A DNA stretch of 64,000 bases from Escherichia coli (lineage in GTDB: Bacteria > Pseudomonadota > Gammaproteobacteria > Enterobacterales > Enterobacteriaceae), in assembly GCF_022846255.1 (NCBI RefSeq), contig NZ_AP025682.1; one strand, 5' to 3'. How positions within the stretch are numbered: position 1 is the stretch's first letter; every line of letters begins with the position of its first letter. Positions 3,363 to 42,006 of this stretch are shown here, in pieces. The notes below the pieces were generated by a model. It had not been told where the DNA came from and did not search any database. It saw only the letters and a program-made list of their open reading frames with translations. A program made the position numbers and the translations under genes.

Positions 3363-4540
3363 ACATCTTTAATTCGCAGTAAGCAAAACAGAGTAGCGAT
3401 AATCATCACCATCGCAAACCAGAACACAGCGTGATAATTCCAGATCTCGGCGACGATGCCCGCCACTGATCCTGCGATGATCCAGCCCACGCGCGACGTG
3501 TTGGTATAGAGCGTGGTGGCTGAACCTGCCTGACCGGGCATCAAATCCTGAAAATAGAGCATCCCGATGCCGCCCAGAATGCCAATAAAAATAGCATTTA
3601 GCAGCTGCAAGCCCAACAGAATGACAGGTGAATGCGCCATCAGCATTCCTGCGTAAAAACAGACGCCACCCACGGCAGCAACGCGCATTAAGAAGCGCTT
3701 ACCCAGACGTTTGGCAAAATATCCGGCGATCAACATGGTCGGGATTTCCAGCCCTGCGGCGGTCCCCATCATCACACCGGCCAGTTTCTCGGGAAGATGC
3801 AGTTCGTTGATAATAAATAGCGGCATGTTGATGATGTACAGGCTGTTCGAGCCCCACATCAATGTACAAATGACAAACAGCAGCAACGTATCGCGACGGT
3901 TACGGCGCGGCGCTTCAACCGTGCCGGTCGCCAGCGGAAGCTCTTTTTGCATCGACGGCAAAAACAGCCACACCATCACGCCGCAAACAATAAACGCTAC
4001 CGCTGCGCTCAGATACATTACCGTAAAGCTGAAACCCATCGCTAAGGCATAAGCCAGCGGTGGGCCAATGACCCATGCCAGTGAAACCTGAGCGCGTAAA
4101 AAAGAGCTGAACATCACCGCCTCACGTCCGGTTTTGTCAGCATGTTCACGGGCAAGGGCAAACATTTGCGGGTTAGCGGTTGAGCCAAAGCTGCTAAGAA
4201 AGACGCCAACGAATAGCAAAACAAAGTAGTTGCGATTCCAGGCAAAAAGGGTGCAGGCCAGCACGCCTAACAGGCAGCAAAAGACAATCAGCGATTTGCG
4301 ATCGCCGCGCTTATCAGAGCGCCCGGCGAGAAACTGACTCACCAGAATCCCAATGACTGCGCTGCCGGTAAAGAAGAATCCCACCATCGCCGGACGGGCA
4401 TGTACTTCATCAGTAAGAAAAATACTGAGTGTCGGGGTTTGCAGAGCGCCCGCAATACCGGTGAGAAAGGCAACGATTAAAAACGCCATCGAGGTCAGGT
4501 CAAACGATTTCGCGCTGGTGACTGCGGGGGAGTTATGCAT
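3359..4540 (-). CDS. setB: MFS sugar efflux transporter SetB
   Basis: 393-aa polytopic membrane protein, MFS architecture, recognised sequence. Confidence 0.9.
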
Positions 4541-4906: not shown

Positions 4907-6037
4907 ATGTTCCAGTTATCCGTACAGGACATCCATCCGGGCGAAAAGGCCGGAGACAAAGAAGAGGCGATTCGCCAGGTCGCTGCGGCGCTGGTGCAGG
5001 CCGGTAATGTAGCTGAAGGCTACGTCAATGGCATGCTGGCGCGCGAACAGCAAACCTCAACGTTCCTCGGCAATGGTATTGCTATTCCACACGGCACTAC
5101 CGACACCCGCGATCAGGTGCTGAAAACCGGCGTTCAGGTATTTCAGTTCCCGGAAGGCGTCACCTGGGGTGACGGCCAGGTAGCGTACGTGGCGATCGGT
5201 ATTGCTGCCAGCTCGGATGAACATCTGGGCCTGCTACGCCAGCTGACCCACGTACTGAGCGATGATTCCGTTGCTGAACAACTGAAGTCAGCAACAACAG
5301 CAGAAGAACTTCGCGCATTGCTGATGGGCGAAAAGCAGAGTGAGCAGCTGAAGCTCGACAACGAAATGCTGACGTTGGATATCGTCGCCAGCGATCTGCT
5401 GACTCTTCAGGCGCTGAACGCTGCGCGTCTGAAAGAGGCGGGGGCAGTTGACGCCACTTTCGTCACCAAAGCCATCAATGAACAACCGCTGAACCTCGGG
5501 CAGGGTATCTGGCTGAGCGATAGCGCCGAAGGCAATCTGCGTAGCGCGATTGCGGTAAGCCGTGCGGCAAATGCTTTTGATGTGGACGGCGAAACGGCAG
5601 CCATGCTGGTGAGTGTGGCGATGAATGACGATCAGCCCATCGCGGTTCTTAAGCGTCTCGCTGATTTGTTGCTCGATAATAAAGCTGACCGCTTGCTGAA
5701 AGCGGATGCGGCAACGTTGCTGGCGCTGCTGACCAGCGATGATGCGCCGACCGACGACGTGTTAAGCGCGGAGTTTGTGGTGCGCAATGAACACGGCCTG
5801 CATGCTCGTCCAGGTACCATGCTAGTCAATACCATTAAACAATTTAACAGTGATATTACCGTGACAAACCTTGATGGCACCGGCAAACCGGCAAACGGAC
5901 GTAGTCTGATGAAAGTTGTGGCACTTGGCGTTAAGAAAGGTCATCGCCTACGCTTTACCGCCCAGGGTGCAGATGCTGAACAGGCGCTGAAAGCCATTGG
6001 CGACGCTATCGCTGCTGGTCTTGGGGAGGGCGCATAA
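4907..6037 (+). CDS. fruB: Fructose PTS diphosphoryl transfer protein (IIA-FPr fusion)
   Basis: 376-aa ORF with N-terminal EIIA and C-terminal HPr-like domain (GLHARPG motif); first gene of a coupled fruB-fruK-fruA set. Confidence 0.93.
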
Positions 6038-6975
6038 TGAGCAGACGTGTTGCTACGATCACCCTTAATCCGGCTTATGACCTTGTTGGTTTCTGCCCGG
6101 AAATTGAACGCGGCGAAGTGAACCTGGTGAAAACCACCGGTCTGCATGCGGCGGGTAAAGGCATCAACGTGGCCAAAGTATTAAAAGACCTGGGAATTGA
6201 TGTCACCGTTGGCGGCTTCCTGGGTAAAGACAATCAGGATGGTTTTCAGCAACTGTTCAGCGAGCTGGGCATTGCCAACCGTTTCCAGGTTGTACAGGGG
6301 CGCACCCGAATTAACGTTAAGCTGACGGAAAAAGACGGCGAAGTGACCGACTTCAACTTCTCGGGTTTTGAAGTCACCCCCGCCGACTGGGAACGCTTTG
6401 TGACTGATTCTCTGAGCTGGCTCGGTCAGTTCGATATGGTCTGTGTCAGCGGAAGCTTACCGTCAGGCGTCAGCCCGGAAGCGTTCACCGACTGGATGAC
6501 TCGCCTGCGTAGTCAGTGTCCTTGCATTATCTTTGATAGTAGCCGTGAAGCGTTAGTAGCAGGTTTGAAAGCGGCACCGTGGCTGGTGAAACCTAACCGC
6601 CGCGAGCTGGAAATCTGGGCAGGCCGTAAACTGCCTGAAATGAAAGATGTGATTGAAGCTGCGCATGCGCTGCGTGAACAAGGCATCGCGCATGTTGTTA
6701 TTTCACTGGGTGCCGAAGGCGCGCTTTGGGTTAATGCCTCCGGCGAATGGATCGCCAAACCACCGTCAGTCGATGTCGTAAGCACCGTTGGCGCAGGGGA
6801 TTCTATGGTTGGTGGCCTGATTTATGGCTTGCTGATGCGTGAATCCAGTGAACACACACTGCGTCTGGCGACAGCTGTTGCAGCCCTGGCGGTAAGTCAA
6901 AGCAATGTGGGTATTACCGATCGTCCGCAGTTGGCCGCAATGATGGCGCGCGTCGACTTACAACCTTTTAACTGA
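6037..6975 (+). CDS. fruK: 1-phosphofructokinase (PfkB family)
   Basis: 312-aa ORF; start overlaps the fruB stop (ATGA-type coupling); PfkB signature GAGDSMVGG. Confidence 0.93.
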   Translation: MSRRVATITLNPAYDLVGFCPEIERGEVNLVKTTGLHAAGKGINVAKVLKDLGIDVTVGGFLGKDNQDGFQQLFSELGIANRFQVVQGRTRINVKLTEKDGEVTDFNFSGFEVTPADWERFVTDSLSWLGQFDMVCVSGSLPSGVSPEAFTDWMTRLRSQCPCIIFDSSREALVAGLKAAPWLVKPNRRELEIWAGRKLPEMKDVIEAAHALREQGIAHVVISLGAEGALWVNASGEWIAKPPSVDVVSTVGAGDSMVGGLIYGLLMRESSEHTLRLATAVAALAVSQSNVGITDRPQLAAMMARVDLQPFN

Positions 6976-6991: not shown

Positions 6992-8683
6992 ATGAAAACG
7001 CTGCTGATTATTGACGCTAATCTCGGTCAGGCACGCGCCTATATGGCGAAGACCCTGCTGGGCGCGGCGGCGCGAAAAGCAAAACTGGAAATCATCGACA
7101 ATCCGAACGACGCAGAAATGGCGATTGTTCTCGGTGATTCCATCCCGAATGACAGCGCGCTGAACGGTAAAAATGTCTGGCTGGGTGATATTTCCCGGGC
7201 AGTTGCGCACCCTGAGCTGTTCCTGAGTGAAGCCAAAGGCCATGCGAAACCTTACACTGCGCCGGTCGCTGCGACAGCACCGGTTGCTGCCAGCGGTCCG
7301 AAACGCGTAGTTGCGGTGACTGCTTGCCCGACTGGCGTAGCACACACCTTTATGGCGGCTGAAGCCATTGAAACCGAAGCGAAAAAACGTGGCTGGTGGG
7401 TGAAAGTTGAAACCCGTGGTTCTGTTGGCGCGGGTAATGCAATCACCCCTGAAGAAGTCGCAGCAGCGGATCTGGTGATTGTGGCGGCAGATATCGAAGT
7501 GGATCTGGCGAAATTTGCTGGTAAACCGATGTATCGCACCTCTACCGGTCTGGCGCTGAAGAAAACTGCGCAGGAACTGGATAAAGCGGTTGCTGAAGCA
7601 ACGCCGTATGAACCGGCGGGCAAAACTCAAACAGCGACCACTGAAGGTAAGAAAGAGAGTGCAGGCGCTTACCGTCACTTGCTGACGGGCGTCTCTTACA
7701 TGCTGCCGATGGTTGTTGCAGGTGGTCTGTGTATCGCGCTTTCTTTTGCTTTTGGTATCGAAGCGTTTAAAGAGCCGGGTACGTTGGCAGCGGCGCTGAT
7801 GCAGATTGGTGGTGGTTCAGCCTTTGCGCTGATGGTGCCGGTACTGGCAGGTTATATTGCCTTCTCCATTGCCGATCGTCCGGGTCTCACGCCGGGTCTG
7901 ATTGGCGGTATGCTGGCGGTTAGCACCGGTTCTGGCTTCATTGGTGGTATTATTGCGGGCTTCCTGGCGGGTTACATTGCGAAGTTAATCAGTACGCAAC
8001 TGAAACTGCCACAGAGTATGGAGGCACTGAAACCGATCCTGATCATTCCGCTAATTTCCAGTCTGGTGGTCGGTCTGGCGATGATCTACCTAATCGGTAA
8101 ACCGGTTGCTGGCATTCTCGATGGGTTGACTCACTGGCTGCAGACCATGGGGACTGCGAATGCGGTTCTGCTGGGGGCGATCCTCGGTGGCATGATGTGT
8201 ACTGACATGGGCGGTCCGGTAAACAAAGCAGCGTACGCATTCGGTGTGGGTCTGCTGAGTACTCAAACCTATGGCCCGATGGCGGCGATTATGGCGGCAG
8301 GTATGGTGCCACCGCTGGCAATGGGTCTGGCAACAATGGTGGCGCGTCGCAAATTCGACAAAGCGCAGCAGGAAGGTGGCAAAGCCGCTCTGGTACTTGG
8401 TCTGTGCTTTATTTCGGAAGGTGCAATTCCGTTTGCTGCTCGTGATCCGATGCGTGTGCTACCGTGCTGTATCGTTGGTGGGGCGCTGACTGGCGCAATC
8501 TCAATGGCGATTGGTGCGAAACTGATGGCACCACACGGTGGTCTGTTTGTTCTGCTGATCCCTGGCGCTATTACGCCGGTATTGGGTTACCTGGTAGCAA
8601 TTATTGCCGGTACGCTGGTGGCGGGTTTGGCCTATGCCTTCCTCAAACGCCCGGAAACACAAATAGTAGAAAAAAACGCATAA
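6992..8683 (+). CDS. fruA: Fructose PTS EIIB'BC component
   Basis: 563-aa ORF, duplicated IIB-like N-terminus plus polytopic IIC membrane domain. Confidence 0.93.
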   Translation: MKTLLIIDANLGQARAYMAKTLLGAAARKAKLEIIDNPNDAEMAIVLGDSIPNDSALNGKNVWLGDISRAVAHPELFLSEAKGHAKPYTAPVAATAPVAASGPKRVVAVTACPTGVAHTFMAAEAIETEAKKRGWWVKVETRGSVGAGNAITPEEVAAADLVIVAADIEVDLAKFAGKPMYRTSTGLALKKTAQELDKAVAEATPYEPAGKTQTATTEGKKESAGAYRHLLTGVSYMLPMVVAGGLCIALSFAFGIEAFKEPGTLAAALMQIGGGSAFALMVPVLAGYIAFSIADRPGLTPGLIGGMLAVSTGSGFIGGIIAGFLAGYIAKLISTQLKLPQSMEALKPILIIPLISSLVVGLAMIYLIGKPVAGILDGLTHWLQTMGTANAVLLGAILGGMMCTDMGGPVNKAAYAFGVGLLSTQTYGPMAAIMAAGMVPPLAMGLATMVARRKFDKAQQEGGKAALVLGLCFISEGAIPFAARDPMRVLPCCIVGGALTGAISMAIGAKLMAPHGGLFVLLIPGAITPVLGYLVAIIAGTLVAGLAYAFLKRPETQIVEKNA

Positions 8684-8740
8684 TTTCTCTTCATCATCGG
8701 GGCTGAGACATCTCTGCCCCGATGATGACAAACGCAAAAT

Positions 8741-8840
8741 TGCCTGATGCGCTATGCTTATCAGACCTACATGAACCCTGCAATATATTGAATTTTTGCG
8801 CTTTTGTAGGTCGGATAAGGCGTTTACGCCACATCCAGCA
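8741..8840. repeat. BIME: two REP (palindromic unit) copies in opposite orientation
   Basis: TGCCTGATGCGCTATGCTTATCAGACCTACA ... TGTAGGTCGGATAAGGCGTTTACGCCACATCCAGCA, matching the E. coli REP consensus. Confidence 0.8.
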
Positions 8841-8867
8841 TGAACAAAGCGCGCGTTGTCAACAATC

Positions 8868-8897
8868 TGAGGGCAGAAACATCTCTGCCCTTTTTCT
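8868..8897 (+). terminator. Rho-independent terminator of the fruBKA transcript
   Basis: GGGCAGA-aacatc-TCTGCCC followed by TTTTT. Confidence 0.75.
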
Positions 8898-8911
8898 TGC
8901 CTGCCATATTG

Positions 8912-8927
8912 TGTGTTACACATCACA
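8912..8927. promoter_or_regulatory. CRP-like binding site upstream of psuK
   Basis: TGTGTtacacaTCACA, matching TGTGA-N6-TCACA in 9 of 10 half-site positions, about 210 nt upstream of the psuK ATG. Confidence 0.45.
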
Positions 8928-9138
8928 ACTTTCTCTTTTGTTGCTGCATAAATAGACAAATTTTGTGACCGCCTTCATATCTGGCCGATTTCGTTTTTTC
9001 TGATCGATTTACATTACGTTAAACATGCTTATTATGAACATGTGTTTAAATCTGAACACGTGCTCTAATAGTCTTATTGACTGTAATGACTATTTTACCC
9101 AATTTCTTCGTTGGCAATTTATTGCCAGGGGGCGTGCT

Positions 9139-10080
9139 ATGCGCGAAAAGGACTACATAGTAATTATTGGCTCGGCGAATATTGATGTGGCTGGGTATTC
9201 ACATCATCCATTGAATTATGCGGATTCGAATCCCGGAAAAATTAAATTTACCCCAGGTGGCGTGGGAAGGAATATCGCTCATAATCTGGCGTTACTGGGG
9301 AAAAATGCCTGGCTTTTAAGTGCAGTAGGTGGTGATTTTTATGGGCAATCATTACTGGCGCAAACTAATCAATCCGGTGTTTATGTCGATAAATGCTTAA
9401 TTGTTCCGGGTGAGAATACATCCAGCTATTTATCACTGCTCGATAATACAGGAGAAATGCTTGTCGCGATAAATGATATGAGTATTAGTGACTGTATTTC
9501 TGCAGAATTTCTTGCCCAGCATCAGGAGTTTATTCGCGGTGCAAAGGTTATTGTCGCGGATTGCAACCTTAGTGAAGAGGCGCTGGTCTGGGTTCTGGAA
9601 AATAGCGGGGAAACGCCTGTATTTATTGATCCGGTATCGGCATGGAAATGCGTCAAAATCCGCGATCATCTGAGCAAAATCCATACGTTAAAACCTAACC
9701 GTCTTGAAGCCGAAACGTTGAGCGGAATTGCACTTTCCGGACGTGAAGATGTCGCAAAGGTCGCCGCCTGGTTTCATCAACACGGCCTGAACCGCCTGGT
9801 GCTGAGCATGGGAGGGGATGGCGTTTACTACAGTGATATCAACGGTGAAAGTGGGTGGTCGGCCCCTATTAAAACGAATGTCATCAATGTTACTGGGGCA
9901 GGCGACGCCATGATGGCGGGGCTGGCCTCCTGTTGGGTAGACGGTATGCCGTTTATCGATTCTGTTCGATTTGCGCAGGGATGTTCGTCAATGGCACTTG
10001 CCTGTGAATATACCAACAACCCTGAATTATCAATTGCCAATGTTACATCGTTAGTGGAGAACACAGAATGTCTGAATTAA
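9139..10080 (+). CDS. psuK: Pseudouridine kinase (PfkB family)
   Basis: Track ORF 9025..10080 trimmed to ATG 9139 (MREKDYIVIIGSANIDV..., 313 aa); ribokinase-like GGVGRNIAHNLALLG and C-terminal GAGDAMMAG motifs. Confidence 0.88.
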   Translation: MREKDYIVIIGSANIDVAGYSHHPLNYADSNPGKIKFTPGGVGRNIAHNLALLGKNAWLLSAVGGDFYGQSLLAQTNQSGVYVDKCLIVPGENTSSYLSLLDNTGEMLVAINDMSISDCISAEFLAQHQEFIRGAKVIVADCNLSEEALVWVLENSGETPVFIDPVSAWKCVKIRDHLSKIHTLKPNRLEAETLSGIALSGREDVAKVAAWFHQHGLNRLVLSMGGDGVYYSDINGESGWSAPIKTNVINVTGAGDAMMAGLASCWVDGMPFIDSVRFAQGCSSMALACEYTNNPELSIANVTSLVENTECLN

Positions 10081-11006
10081 CTCTGTCCCCTGAATTATTA
10101 CAAATATCCGCTGAAGTACAGGATGCTTTAAAAAATAAAAAACCGGTTATTGCGCTGGAATCGACCATAATTTCTCACGGAATGCCATTCCCACAAAATG
10201 CCCAAACCGCAATTGAAGTAGAAGAAACAATTCGTAAACAGGGCGCAGTACCAGCCACTATCGCCATTATTGGCGGCGTGATGAAAGTGGGCTTAAGTAA
10301 AGAAGAAATTGAATTGCTGGGCCGTGAAGGACATAACGTGACGAAAGTTAGTCGTCGTGATTTACCTTTTGTCGTTGCAGCAGGGAAAAATGGCGCAACC
10401 ACCGTTGCATCAACCATGATTATTGCAGCACTGGCTGGGATTAAAGTTTTTGCAACCGGAGGTATTGGTGGTGTGCATCGCGGAGCGGAACATACCTTCG
10501 ATATTTCTGCCGATTTACAGGAACTGGCAAATACCAATGTCACTGTTGTTTGTGCGGGGGCAAAATCTATTCTCGATTTAGGATTAACAACAGAATATTT
10601 AGAAACCTTCGGTGTACCGTTAATTGGTTATCAGACAAAAGCGCTGCCTGCGTTTTTCTGCCGAACCAGCCCATTTGAAGTCAGCATTCGTCTTGACAGT
10701 GCCCGCGAAATTGCTCGCGCGATGGCAGTGAAGTGGCAAACCGGTTTGAACGGCGGCCTGGTGGTAGCGAACCCGATCCCGGAACAGTTTGCGATGCCAG
10801 AAGAAACCATCAATGCAGCAATTGATCAAGCCGTTGCTGAAGCCGAAGAACAGGGTGTTATTGGGAAAGAGAGTACACCGTTCCTGCTGGCGCGTGTTGC
10901 GGAGCTAACCGGCGGTGATAGCCTGAAATCCAATATTCAACTGGTCTTTAATAACGCCATTCTGGCGAGTGAAATAGCCAAAGAATACCAGCGTCTCGCG
11001 GGTTAA
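10068..11006 (+). CDS. psuG: Pseudouridine-5'-phosphate glycosidase
   Basis: 312-aa ORF overlapping the psuK 3' end by 13 nt; recognised sequence. Confidence 0.9.
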   Translation: MSELTLSPELLQISAEVQDALKNKKPVIALESTIISHGMPFPQNAQTAIEVEETIRKQGAVPATIAIIGGVMKVGLSKEEIELLGREGHNVTKVSRRDLPFVVAAGKNGATTVASTMIIAALAGIKVFATGGIGGVHRGAEHTFDISADLQELANTNVTVVCAGAKSILDLGLTTEYLETFGVPLIGYQTKALPAFFCRTSPFEVSIRLDSAREIARAMAVKWQTGLNGGLVVANPIPEQFAMPEETINAAIDQAVAEAEEQGVIGKESTPFLLARVAELTGGDSLKSNIQLVFNNAILASEIAKEYQRLAG

Positions 11007-31637: not shown

Positions 31638-31695
31638 TGTAAATGTGGTCCGCATTCGGTCATAAACGCACATAACATCATGGTCTGTGTGGTTT

Positions 31696-31877
31696 TGTAG
31701 GCCGGATAAGGCGTTCACGCCGCATCCGGCGACAGGAGCCAAATGCCGGATGCAACGCTGGCGCGTTTTATCCGGCCTACAATGAGCTCAACATACTGAT
31801 TTGTATGGTTTTGTAGGCCGGATAAGGCGTTCAAGCCGCATCCGGCGACAGGAACTAAATGCCGGATGCGTCGCTGG
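31696..31877. repeat. BIME cluster: about four REP units in alternating orientation (two tandem ~115-bp units)
   Basis: Repeated TGTAGGCCGGATAAGGCGTTCA(C/A)GCCGCATCCGGCGACAGGA and inverted GCCGGATGC...CCGGCCTACA copies. Confidence 0.85.
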
Positions 31878-31879
31878 TT

Positions 31880-33115
31880 TTACAACGTTACCGGGTGTTC
31901 TTTCTCGCCTTTCTTAAACTTCACTTCCCCAAGATCAATACAACCTACCGGGCAGACATGACCACAAAGCAGACAACCCACGCATTTCTCGGTATTACAA
32001 TGCGGTGTGCGGGTTTTCTCGCTCCATTCCATCGCCTGGTGACCGCCGTCGTAACAGGAAATATAACAGCGTCCACAGCCAACACATTTATCAAGATTGA
32101 TATGGGGATAGACAATATAACTGCGGTCTAAATCTTCCGCCGGGACAATATTGTGATTCGCCAGACCCACCATCTCCTGCAACGAATCAAACCCTTGATC
32201 GGCGAGATAATGCGACAACCCGCTTGCCATATCTTCCACTATCCGATACCCGTACTGCATAATGCCGGTGGTCACCTGCAACGTTGCTGCGCCGAGCAAT
32301 AAAAACTCCGCCGCATCTTCCCAGGTTTCAATGCCGCCGATACCGCTGATCGGGAAATCGTGCAGTTCTGGATGGGTGCGCATTTGCTGAATAAAGCGTA
32401 GGGCGATCGGTTTTACCGCTTTACCGGAATATCCGGAAATACTCGATTTACCGTTAACGATCGGCATACCAATTTTCTGATTAAGATCGATATTGGTGAT
32501 GGATTTAACGGTGTTAATCGCCGCAATGCCATCTGCGCCGCCGCGCTTCGCCGCCAGCGCCACTTCGCACATATCACCAATATTCGGCGTCATCTTCGCC
32601 AGCATTGGCAGCGTGGAACCACGTTTTACTGCCCGACAATATTTTTCTACCAGCTCCGGGCTTTGCCCGACATCGCTACCCATCGCATGAGAAGTCATTT
32701 GCGGACAGGAGAAGTTACACTCGATCATATCCGCGCCAGCTTCTTGCACCAGACGCGCCAGCTCTTCCCATTGCTGCTCATTTTCGCCCATGATTGAAGC
32801 GATCAATACTTTGTCCGGATAATCTTCTTTCAGCCGACGCAGGGCGGCCAGATTCTCTTCCAACGGATGTTCAGCAATCTGCTCCATATTTTTGAAGCCG
32901 ATAAAACCGGTATCTTCTTTCACCAGATGATCAAAACGCGGCGAGACTTCGTTGGCGATAAAAAAACCGATCGTTTTAAACACCACGCCGCCCCAACCTG
33001 TGTCGTAGGCTTTGGCACACATCTCATAGCAGTTGCCTACCGGTGAAGAAGAAAGGCAGAACGGGTTAGGAAACTTCACGCCGCAAAAGGTAATCGAAAG
33101 ATCTTTCGTTAACAT
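31880..33115 (-). CDS. preA: NAD-dependent dihydropyrimidine dehydrogenase subunit PreA (DHOD-like TIM barrel with C-terminal 4Fe-4S ferredoxin)
   Basis: 411 aa from ATG 33115; C-terminal CxxCxxCxxxCP motifs; overlaps the preT stop. Confidence 0.9.
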
Positions 33116-41890: not shown

Positions 41891-41930
41891 CGCAGTGAGG
41901 TGCGTGGTTATTTCAATGGGTAAAATTTTG

Positions 41931-42006
41931 GTAGGCATGATAAGACGCACAAGCGTCGCATCAGGCATGGTGCACCGGATGTCGGATGCGGCGCGAACGC
42001 CTTACC
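41931..42006. repeat. BIME: two REP units between yohF and yohD
   Basis: GTAGGCATGATAAGACGCACAAGCGTCGCATCAGGCA and CACCGGATGTCGGATGCGGCGCGAACGCCTTACC. Confidence 0.8.

What the first reader, a model, noticed from the sequence alone, without database searches (positions are those of the whole stretch)
8692..8897. Two related stem-loops flank the BIME downstream of fruA
The hairpin CATCATCGGGGC-tgagacatctct-GCCCCGATGATG (8692-8727, 12-bp perfect stem, no U-tract) and the terminator GGGCAGA-aacatc-TCTGCCC-TTTTT (8871-8895) both contain the block ACATCTCTGCCC, with a two-REP BIME between them. The first may act as an mRNA 3'-end stabiliser or processing site and the second as the true terminator; the shared 12-mer hints at a small local duplication.
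Basis: seen in the sequence. Interest (0 to 1): 0.25.

Follow-up and report, generated by a model that had tools for sequence, protein, structure and literature searches.

The report
Terminator duplicated by a BIME-1 insertion
The two look-alike stem-loops after fruA are two copies of the operon's original transcription terminator, duplicated when a small repetitive element (BIME-1) landed there, and the same hairpin duplication flanks about a third to a half of other BIME-1 copies examined, a possible footprint of how these elements insert.

Summary
HP1 (8691-8728) and HP2 (8869-8892, followed by a T-run) share 18 of 20 bases, and exactly one complete BIME-1 (8723-8870) lies between them.

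Relatives outside Escherichia (Citrobacter, Enterobacter, Klebsiella, Buttiauxella) have a single terminator after fruA, GGGCAGAGATTTCTCTGCCC-T6. So HP1 and HP2 are a target duplication of the ancestral fruBKA terminator around the inserted element. HP2 kept the T-tract. Its K-12 counterpart is a mapped 3' end. HP1 lost the T-tract and its stem grew longer by pairing with the first bases of BIME-1. It accumulates uncompensated changes, so it looks like a relic. A stabiliser role is untested.

The pattern is general. Of 19 distinct BIME-1 loci, 6 to 9 have locus-specific hairpin copies on both sides (P about 1e-11 against cross-locus controls). In 5 of 5 occupied/empty comparisons the empty site holds exactly one hairpin.

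Only 22% of E. coli genomes carry this allele, and E. albertii shares it. The K-12-type allele also has two hairpin copies, but around an unrelated 120-nt single-copy insert.

A 20-26 bp hairpin-length duplication is not what the RAYT/IS200-like model predicts. I found no description of it in the accessible literature, but the key 1990s papers were not readable.

The parts
6992..8683 (+). fruA coding sequence (last gene of fruBKA); stop codon TAA at 8681-8683
   Evidence: ORF list. Annotated as fruA in identical E. coli genomes.
8691..8728 (+). HP1: extended stem-loop with no U-tract. The outer 7-8 bp of the stem pair the left flank (CATCATC) with the junction plus the first bases of BIME-1 (GA+TGATG).
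   Evidence: Inverted repeat I1. RNA fold -29.5 kcal/mol, z = -8.4. BIME-1 begins at 8723.
8700..8719 (+). Left copy of the duplicated ancestral fruBKA terminator hairpin (GGGCTGAGACATCTCTGCCC)
   Evidence: Direct repeat D1, 18/20. Outgroups have a single GGGCAGAGATTTCTCTGCCC.
8723..8870 (+). Complete BIME-1 / RIP-type element: outer motif TGATGACAAACGCAAAA, REP, linker, inverted REP, outer motif ...GTTGTCAACAATCTGA
   Evidence: nhmmer with a profile of 10 other BIME-1 copies gives E = 1.6e-45 over 8723-8869. Paralogous megablast hits cover query 164-311, i.e. 8723-8870. Alignment A2.
8742..8770 (+). REP unit (Z-type), GCCTGATGCGCTATGCTTATCAGACCTAC
   Evidence: Pattern match at 8757-8770. Sequence read. 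The Y/Z type naming is from my own knowledge.
8779..8793 (+). Core of the long (L) linker, TGCAATATATTGAAT, which holds the IHF-site region of BIME-1
   Evidence: Exact match. Conserved in other BIME-1 copies. IHF binding of the BIME-1 linker is stated in PMC3333891 and was not tested here.
8806..8839 (-). REP unit (Y-type), inverted relative to the first REP
   Evidence: Pattern match at 8806-8819 on the minus strand. Inverted repeat I4.
8869..8898 (+). HP2: right copy of the terminator (core 8871-8890) with its T-tract TTTTTCTT. Predicted functional intrinsic terminator of fruBKA.
   Evidence: Terminator scan. Fold -15.1 kcal/mol. The K-12 orthologue is a mapped 3' end. Core stem and T-run are invariant in alignment A6.
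8657..11006 (+). Divergent allele block that carries this whole arrangement: fruA 3' end, the spacer, psuK and psuG
   Evidence: 98% identity to K-12 up to 8656, unalignable over 8657-9006, 76-91% over 9007-11006, then 99-100%. The allele is in 1193 of 5426 E. coli genomes against 4219 with the K-12 type.
9008..9035 (+). Sigma-70-like promoter candidate for psuK (TTTACA-16-TATTAT), downstream of HP2. psuK starts at 9140.
   Evidence: Consensus scan only. This region is orthologous to the sequence directly after the single terminator in outgroups.

Best explanation
The two stem-loops are two copies of one ancestral sequence, the intrinsic terminator of the fruBKA operon. A 148-bp BIME-1 (an inverted REP pair with a long linker and conserved outer motifs) was inserted at that terminator in an Escherichia ancestor. 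The roughly 20-bp hairpin ended up on both sides of the insert, like a target-site duplication whose length equals the local palindrome.

The right copy (HP2) kept the T-tract and the downstream DNA. It is the operon's working Rho-independent terminator.

The left copy (HP1) stayed at the ancestral distance from the fruA stop codon but lost its T-tract, because the element now abuts the stem. RNA polymerase should therefore read through HP1 and the BIME-1 and stop at HP2, which gives fruBKA mRNA a structured 3' UTR of about 210 nt. HP1's stem became longer because the left flank is now complementary to the first bases of the element. This is most simply explained by quasi-palindrome (template-switch) correction. 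HP1 is mainly a relic. It may incidentally block 3'-exonucleases.

What is shown: the duplication, the element's identity, the single-copy state in outgroups, the generality at other BIME-1 loci, and a 3' end at the K-12 HP2.

What is inferred: read-through of HP1, any stabiliser role, and the molecular mechanism of duplication. For the mechanism I favour structure-directed staggered cleavage at the base of an extruded hairpin or cruciform, followed by fill-in.
For: (1) The two copies match at 18/20, and none of 342 cross-locus control pairs reaches the observed flank score.

(2) The insert is a complete BIME-1 (E = 1.6e-45). Its edges (8723 and 8870) abut the two copies.

(3) Citrobacter amalonaticus, Enterobacter soli, E. 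asburiae, Klebsiella michiganensis, K. grimontii, Buttiauxella massiliensis and many other Citrobacter have one terminator, GGGCAGAGATTTCTCTGCCC-T6, 15-25 nt after fruA. In the species that have psuK next to fruA, the psuK upstream region follows it directly.

(4) The same architecture occurs at other BIME-1 loci, each with its own hairpin: ridA-mgtA, fbaA-mscS, rutG-ymdF, srmB-yfiE, mog-satP and rsmS-mscK. Six of 19 loci score at least 13, against 0.3% of controls (binomial P = 1.6e-11). Nine of 19 score at least 10, against 4.4%. Direct similarity exceeds inverted similarity.

(5) Occupied and empty alleles were compared within E. coli at rutG-ymdF, srmB-yfiE, mog-satP and rsmS-mscK. The empty allele has exactly one hairpin. 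The occupied allele has copy, 4-5 nt, BIME-1, copy.

(6) There is an independent REP-pair insertion at the orthologous fruA terminator in a Pluralibacter genome, again with two terminator copies where relatives have one.

(7) A K-12 Term-seq 3' end lies exactly at the end of the orthologous HP2 T-run, and none is curated at HP1.

(8) The HP2 stem is invariant, whereas HP1 carries different uncompensated changes in the window, in E. albertii and in strain 2012EL-2448.
Against: There are no transcript data for this allele.

The direction of change (insertion versus excision) is inferred from parsimony.

About half of the BIME-1 loci show no flanking duplication, so duplication is not obligatory, or it decays.

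The K-12-type allele has the same two-hairpin layout around a 120-nt single-copy insert that is not detectably a BIME-1. The duplication process may therefore not be specific to BIME-1. Alternatively, the history at this locus involves either replacement of one insert by another or two independent events.

HP1's very high stability (-29.5 kcal/mol) could reflect selection rather than neutral palindrome correction.

The BCM data in K-12 place a Rho-termination region at 2259533 (Rho score 3.5; PMC7815308 supplementary file 2), so termination near HP2 may not be purely intrinsic.
Confidence: 0.78

Rival explanations
1. Functional tandem module. HP1 is maintained by selection as an mRNA 3'-end stabiliser or processing site for fruBKA, and HP2 is the terminator. 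The similarity is a by-product of history, but both hairpins are functional.
For: HP1 is extremely stable (-29.5 kcal/mol, z = -8.4). In both E. coli allele classes its stem is extended beyond the duplicated core by different sequences: CATCATC/GATGATG here and TTACA/TGTAA in K-12. That REP-containing 3' UTRs can stabilise upstream mRNA is stated in PMC3333891 and PMC3184786.
Against: HP1 shows uncompensated stem mutations in three lineages. No curated 3' end lies at the K-12 HP1 in three growth conditions, although fruBKA is poorly expressed in those conditions (my own knowledge). Stem extension can arise without selection by quasi-palindrome template switching (my own knowledge).
Confidence: 0.3
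2. Chance or convergence. Two independent GC-rich terminator-like hairpins happen to share a 12-mer.
For: Both are short GC-rich palindromes, a class in which partial matches are commoner than in random DNA.
Against: The match is 18/20 and includes loop bases. None of 342 cross-locus flank pairs reaches the observed score. Both copies resemble the single outgroup terminator. The same pattern recurs at other loci, with single-copy empty sites.
Confidence: 0.02
3. Excision rather than insertion. The hairpin-BIME-hairpin state is old, and the single-hairpin genomes arose by deletion between the two direct repeats.
For: Direct repeats of 20-25 bp would promote precise deletion. BIME-1 copies are known to be present or absent among isolates (PMC1187871).
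Against: For fruA, the single terminator is found across many genera. At srmB-yfiE, each occupied-site copy carries its own derived changes relative to the empty-site hairpin. In any case this rival still requires an original duplication at insertion.
Confidence: 0.07
4. Replication template switching is the duplication mechanism, not a transposase-type staggered cut. A nascent strand that has just copied the terminator palindrome stalls, copies ectopic DNA (a BIME-1, or other filler such as the K-12 120-nt insert), and re-anneals upstream of the palindrome. The palindrome is thereby duplicated.
For: The K-12-type allele has the same duplicated terminator around an insert that is unique and not a BIME-1. 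The duplication length tracks palindrome length and is not fixed: about 20, 22, 25 and 26 bp. HP1 stem extensions look like template-switch products.
Against: The junctions with the element are fairly constant (xGAC|TGATGAC... and ...CAATCTGA|), as expected for a defined mobile unit. No microhomology between flanks and element ends was evident.
Confidence: 0.35

Closest known systems
BIME-1 / RIP / RIB elements of E. coli (an inverted REP pair, i.e. a REPIN, with an IHF-binding long linker)
   Same: It has two inverted REPs, the L-linker core TGCAATATATTGAAT, conserved outer motifs, a size of 148 bp, an extragenic position at the 3' end of an operon, and presence/absence polymorphism among strains.
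   Different: This copy is absent from K-12. Here, and at one third to one half of other copies, it is bracketed by a duplicated local terminator hairpin. The accessible descriptions of BIMEs, REPINs and RAYTs do not mention this feature.
Rho-independent (intrinsic) terminators
   Same: HP2 has a GC-rich 9-bp stem, a 6-nt loop and a T-run. Its orthologue in K-12 is a mapped 3' end.
   Different: HP1 has the same stem core but no U-tract, so it does not meet the definition.
MITEs with terminal inverted repeats and target-site duplications
   Same: It is a short non-coding multicopy unit with imperfect terminal inverted repeats (TGATGACAAAC... / ...GTTGTCAACA) and direct repeats of target DNA on both sides. 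Empty sites hold one copy.
   Different: The duplication is 20-26 bp, variable in length, and coincides with a whole hairpin, rather than being a fixed 2-10 bp stagger. Only about half of the copies show it. A review states that REPs lack MITE signatures (PMC3184786).
IS200/IS605-type single-strand 'peel and paste' transposition, the proposed model for mobilisation of REPs and BIMEs by RAYT (TnpA-REP)
   Same: The substrates are REP hairpins. The E. coli enzyme cleaves near REPs in vitro (PMC3333891).
   Different: That family does not generate direct target repeats (PMC3333891; PMC2817692). The hairpin-length duplications seen here are not predicted by it.
REP dimers inserted within small palindromes in other bacteria (Thermomicrobium roseum GTAG-23, Halothiobacillus neapolitanus CGTC-1; Di Nocera et al. 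2013)
   Same: REP-type repeats are associated with a palindromic target (PMC3733652).
   Different: In those cases the element is described as lying inside one palindrome. Here the whole palindrome is present as a direct repeat on each side (the loops have the same orientation).

Membership tests
BIME-1 (RIP/RIB; REPIN) | Two REP units in inverted orientation | tested here: met
   REPs at 8742-8770 (+) and 8806-8839 (inverted).
BIME-1 (RIP/RIB; REPIN) | Long conserved linker (L) carrying the IHF consensus region | tested here: met
   TGCAATATATTGAAT at 8779-8793, shared with other copies. Tested by sequence only.
BIME-1 (RIP/RIB; REPIN) | Full-length similarity to other genomic copies, including the outer motifs | tested here: met
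   nhmmer E = 1.6e-45 over model positions 1-147. Alignment A2.
BIME-1 (RIP/RIB; REPIN) | IHF binding to the linker | not testable with these tools
   Needs a gel shift or ChIP.
Intrinsic terminator (HP2) | GC-rich stem-loop immediately followed by a U-tract | tested here: met
   9-bp stem, 6-nt loop, TTTTTCTT.
Intrinsic terminator (HP2) | Transcript 3' ends map in the U-tract | tested here: inconclusive
   Met for the K-12 orthologue (3' end at 2259536, minus strand). No data exist for the window allele.
Intrinsic terminator (HP1) | U-tract after the stem | tested here: not met
   The stem is followed by ACAAACGCAAAAUUGCC.
MITE-like transposable element | Target-site duplication, with empty sites carrying a single copy | tested here: met
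   5 of 5 occupied/empty comparisons. The length is atypical (20-26 bp, equal to the hairpin).
MITE-like transposable element | Fixed-length duplication present at every copy | tested here: not met
   The length varies with the local hairpin. Ten of 19 loci show no significant flank similarity.
RAYT / IS200-IS605-type mobilisation | Insertion without target duplication | tested here: not met
   Hairpin-length direct repeats flank 6-9 of 19 copies. The expectation of no duplication comes from PMC3333891 and PMC2817692.
Known RNA families (Rfam 15) | Covariance-model match at the gathering score | tested here: not met
   Only sub-threshold matches to the REP-derived families naRNA4 (29.2 bits against 59.5) and ES036 (27.3 against 37.6).

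The most novel reading that the evidence does not exclude
Integration of BIME-1, and perhaps of REP doublets in general, is directed to extruded terminator hairpins and duplicates the entire hairpin (20-26 bp). This would be an insertion footprint incompatible with the accepted IS200/IS605-like no-duplication model. It would mean these elements routinely turn single terminators into hairpin-BIME-terminator 3' UTR modules. The fruA locus would be one instance. It would also be a hot spot, hit independently in the E. albertii/B2-type allele, possibly in the K-12-type allele, and in Pluralibacter.
Probability: 0.35. Interest if true: 0.6.

Novelty: new variant of a known kind. Interest (0 to 1): 0.42.

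Why it matters
For the locus itself the result is modest. It explains why fruBKA in about a fifth of E. coli genomes has a long, highly structured 3' UTR with a decoy terminator, and it predicts where transcripts end.

The wider point concerns a question open since the 1980s: how REP and BIME elements spread. The current model, a domesticated IS200-like tyrosine transposase, predicts no target duplication. A reproducible, hairpin-length duplication with matching single-copy empty sites gives a concrete footprint. It points to terminator hairpins as preferred targets. It can be tested directly by a census across thousands of genomes and by biochemical assays on hairpin or cruciform substrates.

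It also shows a route by which terminators get duplicated and 3' UTRs grow.

Tried and rejected
(1) The K-12-type 120-nt insert as a decayed BIME-1. By eye the left end (TGATGAGCGCAAAG) and the middle (TGTAATTTTATGAATTT) resembled BIME-1. However, nhmmer with a BIME-1 profile found nothing at E up to 10, and local and global alignments were not better than shuffles. Its fold is not significant (z = -0.2), although it has a 10/11 terminal inverted repeat. It is single-copy in E. coli. Its origin is unresolved.

(2) The 12-nt direct repeat AAACGCATAATT (8674-8685) / AAACGCAAAATT (8730-8741) flanking HP1 (D2) as a separate target duplication. The second copy is part of the conserved BIME-1 outer motif. 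My own estimate is that about 0.3 such 11/12 pairs are expected by chance in the region. Rejected.

(3) The Rfam scan of 8500-9300 gave only sub-threshold REP-derived matches.

(4) Searches for 3'-end data at HP1. Adams et al. 2021 has none at MG1655 22596xx. The TERMITe supplements have no E. coli entry for this locus. PMC9023263 has no held supplements.

(5) Bachellier et al. 1997 (Genetics 145:551; PMC1207841), the paper most likely to have described BIME-1 excision junctions, is not held. Prior description therefore cannot be excluded.

(6) Loci that gave no usable empty site. ridA-mgtA and fepA-entD BIME-1 copies are nearly fixed in E. coli. At glpD-yzgL the alternative alleles diverge before the element.

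(7) Two broad literature searches returned nothing relevant.

Full report
**1. What is in the window**

The window is Escherichia coli DNA. The genes fruB (4907-6037), fruK (6037-6975) and fruA (6992-8683) lie on the + strand, followed by psuK, which starts at 9140.

The finding's coordinates are exact. HP1 is CATCATCGGGGC / 12-nt loop / GCCCCGATGATG at 8692-8727. HP2 is GGGCAGA-aacatc-TCTGCCC at 8871-8890, followed by TTTTT.

The repeat finder shows that the shared block is 20 nt with 18 matches: 8700-8719 against 8871-8890. HP1's arms extend to 18 nt with one mismatch. As RNA, HP1 folds at -29.5 kcal/mol and HP2 at -15.1 kcal/mol. HP2 is the only convincing terminator-like site in the spacer.

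**2. The element between the hairpins**

Two inverted REPs lie at 8742-8770 and 8806-8839. They flank a linker with the core TGCAATATATTGAAT.

Megablast against 5,426 complete E. coli genomes found paralogous copies elsewhere. These align to query 164-311, which is window 8723-8870. A profile built from 10 other copies matches 8723-8869 at E = 1.6e-45. The insert is therefore one complete 148-bp BIME-1, with outer motifs TGATGACAAACGCAAAA... and ...GTTGTCAACAATCTGA (alignment A2).

The element's first bases, TGATG, form part of HP1's right arm. HP2 begins at the base immediately after the element.

**3. This allele is a minority allele**

Only 1,193 of 5,426 genomes carry the window's spacer. 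The K-12-type spacer is in 4,219.

Against a K-12 strain the window is 98% identical up to 8656 and unalignable over 8657-9006. It is 76-91% identical through psuK and psuG up to 11006, and 99-100% identical after that.

E. albertii has the same spacer architecture: HP1, BIME-1, HP2. It is about 92% identical to the window through fruA and the spacer.

MG1655 has no REP annotated between fruA and psuK.

**4. The comparative test**

I fetched 80 loci encoding FruA from one genome per species and read the DNA after each stop codon.

Citrobacter amalonaticus, Enterobacter soli, E. asburiae, Klebsiella michiganensis, K. grimontii, Buttiauxella massiliensis and many other Citrobacter have a single terminator 15-25 nt after fruA: GGGCAGAGATTTCTCTGCCC followed by T6-8. 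Where psuK is the neighbour, the psuK upstream region follows directly.

In alignment A6 the left flank of HP1 and the right flank of HP2 are orthologous to the two sides of that single terminator. Both HP1 and HP2 resemble it. The parsimonious reading is that one ancestral terminator is now present on both sides of an inserted BIME-1. The T-tract stayed with the right copy.

**5. The pattern is not peculiar to fruA**

In alignment A2 the BIME-1 copies at ridA-mgtA and fbaA-mscS also sit between two copies of a hairpin, and each locus has its own hairpin sequence:
- ridA-mgtA: CCGGGCTATCATGCCCGG / GGGGCTATCGTGCCCAG
- fbaA-mscS: CCCGCTCTGCGGG plus T-run on both sides

To sample more loci without regard to their flanks, I scanned metagenome contigs for the 15-nt linker core and kept matches with REP context. 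Together with the BLAST-derived loci this gave 19 distinct BIME-1 loci.

I scored the local alignment of the 50 nt to the left of each element against the 50 nt to its right (+1/-1 scoring). Cross-locus pairs average 6.35 (sd 1.5, maximum 15, n = 342). Six of 19 same-locus pairs score at least 13, against 0.3% of controls (binomial P = 1.6e-11). Nine of 19 score at least 10, against 4.4% of controls. Direct similarity generally exceeds inverted similarity, and where loops are informative they have the same orientation (an earlier version is).

**6. Empty sites**

Four of these loci are polymorphic within E. coli, and in each the empty allele holds exactly one hairpin.

| Locus | Genomes occupied | Empty allele | Occupied allele |
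|---|---|---|---|
| rutG-ymdF | 1,734 | CACCGCCGGTAATCCCGGCGGTT | copy, GATAC, BIME-1, copy |
| srmB-yfiE | 2,525 | AATGCCGGGTTTAAGCCCGGCATTA | AATGCCAGGTTTAAGCCTGGTATTA, AAAG, BIME-1, AATGCCGGGTTTAATCCCGACATTA |
| mog-satP | 467 | one ATCCCCCCGAGCGGGGGGAT | two copies |
| rsmS-mscK | 3,880 | one hairpin | two copies |

At srmB-yfiE each occupied-site copy carries its own derived changes.

With fruA, this makes five of five comparisons. The duplicated segment is about 20-26 bp and coincides with the local palindrome, with or without its T-run.

In a Pluralibacter genome a different REP pair sits at the orthologous fruA terminator, again between two terminator copies, where three related genomes have one.

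**7. The K-12-type allele**

It also has two related hairpins: TTACAGGGCAG-AAATTTC-CTGTCCTGTAA just after fruA, and GGGCAGA-TTATTT-TCTGCCC-T6 about 150 nt later. E. whittamii and other Escherichia lineages share this layout.

The 120-nt insert between them is not a recognisable BIME-1. There is no nhmmer hit, alignments are no better than shuffles, and it occurs once per genome.

In the window/E. albertii allele both copies share loop bases that differ from the ancestral TT: CA in both window copies and in the E. albertii HP2, TA in the E. albertii HP1. The K-12-type copies do not share these bases. This mildly favours two independent events at this terminator, or gene conversion between the copies, over one old duplication. 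I leave this open.

**8. Function**

In MG1655 the orthologous HP2 spans 2259561-2259536 on the minus strand. Adams et al. 2021 list a curated Term-seq 3' end at 2259536 with the sequence ...GGGCAGATTATTTTCTGCCCTTTTTT, and none at HP1 (2259707-2259679). Their BCM data place a Rho-termination region at 2259533 with Rho score 3.5 (PMC7815308). So the T-tract-bearing copy is a real 3' end in the sister allele.

No such data exist for the window allele.

HP1 has no U-tract. Its inner stem carries different uncompensated changes in different strains: a T-T mismatch in the window, a C-T mismatch in E. albertii, and two more left-arm changes in strain 2012EL-2448. The HP2 stem is unchanged in all of them.

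I therefore rate HP1 as mainly a relic that polymerase reads through. Its stem was probably lengthened by quasi-palindrome correction, which is my inference. A role as an exonuclease barrier remains possible but is untested.

Rfam has nothing here beyond sub-threshold REP-derived families.

**9. Mechanism of duplication (inference)**

The duplication length follows the palindrome, and the element's junctions are fairly constant. This suggests cleavage of the two strands at opposite sides of the base of an extruded hairpin or cruciform, insertion of the element, and fill-in. A replication template-switch model is a serious rival, especially given the non-BIME insert in the K-12 allele.

Either way, the footprint differs from what is expected of IS200/IS605-type transposition, the model proposed for mobilisation of REPs and BIMEs by RAYT. 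That mechanism makes no direct target repeats (PMC3333891; PMC2817692).

**10. Comparison with the literature**

The accessible papers on BIMEs, REPINs and RAYTs do not mention duplicated flanking terminators. One review states that REPs lack MITE signatures (PMC3184786). Di Nocera et al. 2013 describe REP dimers inside small palindromes in other phyla, which is related but not the same. BIME-1 presence/absence polymorphism is known (PMC1187871).

The 1990s primary papers were not readable, so prior description cannot be ruled out.

**11. Verdict**

The 'local duplication' hint is right and now has a cause. 'HP2 is the terminator' is supported by orthology. 'HP1 is a stabiliser' is untested and somewhat disfavoured.

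The locus on its own is ordinary. The general hairpin-length duplication at BIME-1 sites is the part worth following up.

Noticed in passing
window 8657-11006: A sharply bounded 2.35-kb block (end of fruA, the spacer, psuK, psuG) is only 76-91% identical to K-12, while both sides are 98-100% identical. E. coli is dimorphic here: 1,193 genomes have this allele and 4,219 have the K-12 type. The spacer part matches E. albertii. This is either an old balanced polymorphism or an introgression.
   Followed up: partly
L001 1325-1746 (K-12 type; MG1655 2259718-2259297, minus strand): The K-12-type spacer has the duplicated terminator around a unique 120-nt AT-rich insert with a 10/11 terminal inverted repeat (TTTGATGAGCG / CGTTCATCAAA). 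The strong 'orphan' Term-seq 3' end at 2259536 could belong to fruBKA read-through or to an unannotated short transcript starting inside the insert.
   Followed up: partly
window 9036-9065: Just downstream of the predicted psuK -10 element lie two copies of GAACAYGTGYT (GAACATGTGTT and GAACACGTGCT), each with a palindromic core. The motif pair is conserved in Citrobacter, Enterobacter, Klebsiella and Buttiauxella psuK upstream regions. It is a likely operator for an unidentified regulator.
   Followed up: no
L055 3385-3560 (Pluralibacter sp. UBA7423): An independent REP-pair insertion (short linker, not BIME-1) sits at the orthologous fruA terminator, with the terminator present on both sides. 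Three related genomes have one terminator.
   Followed up: partly
L008 about 3385-3560 (Escherichia sp. MOD1-EC7003): The K-12-type spacer is truncated after the insert and runs straight into coding-like sequence. HP2 and apparently psuK are deleted.
   Followed up: no
window 31690-31880 and 41925-42000: Other REP clusters are present: a three-REP BIME with short linkers at about 31.7 kb and a REP pair at about 41.9 kb. No flanking hairpin duplication was obvious by eye.
   Followed up: no
hits H92, H93 (ridA-mgtA) and H41 (fruA-psuK, K-12 type): Some genomes carry a transposase gene inserted at the ridA-mgtA BIME-1 locus, and one carries an IS1 in the K-12-type fruA-psuK spacer. This is consistent with BIME regions being IS targets.
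   Followed up: no
window 8674-8685 and 8730-8741: An 11/12 direct repeat brackets HP1 (AAACGCATAATT, spanning the fruA stop codon, and AAACGCAAAATT). The second copy is part of the conserved BIME-1 outer motif. Judged to be chance.
   Followed up: yes
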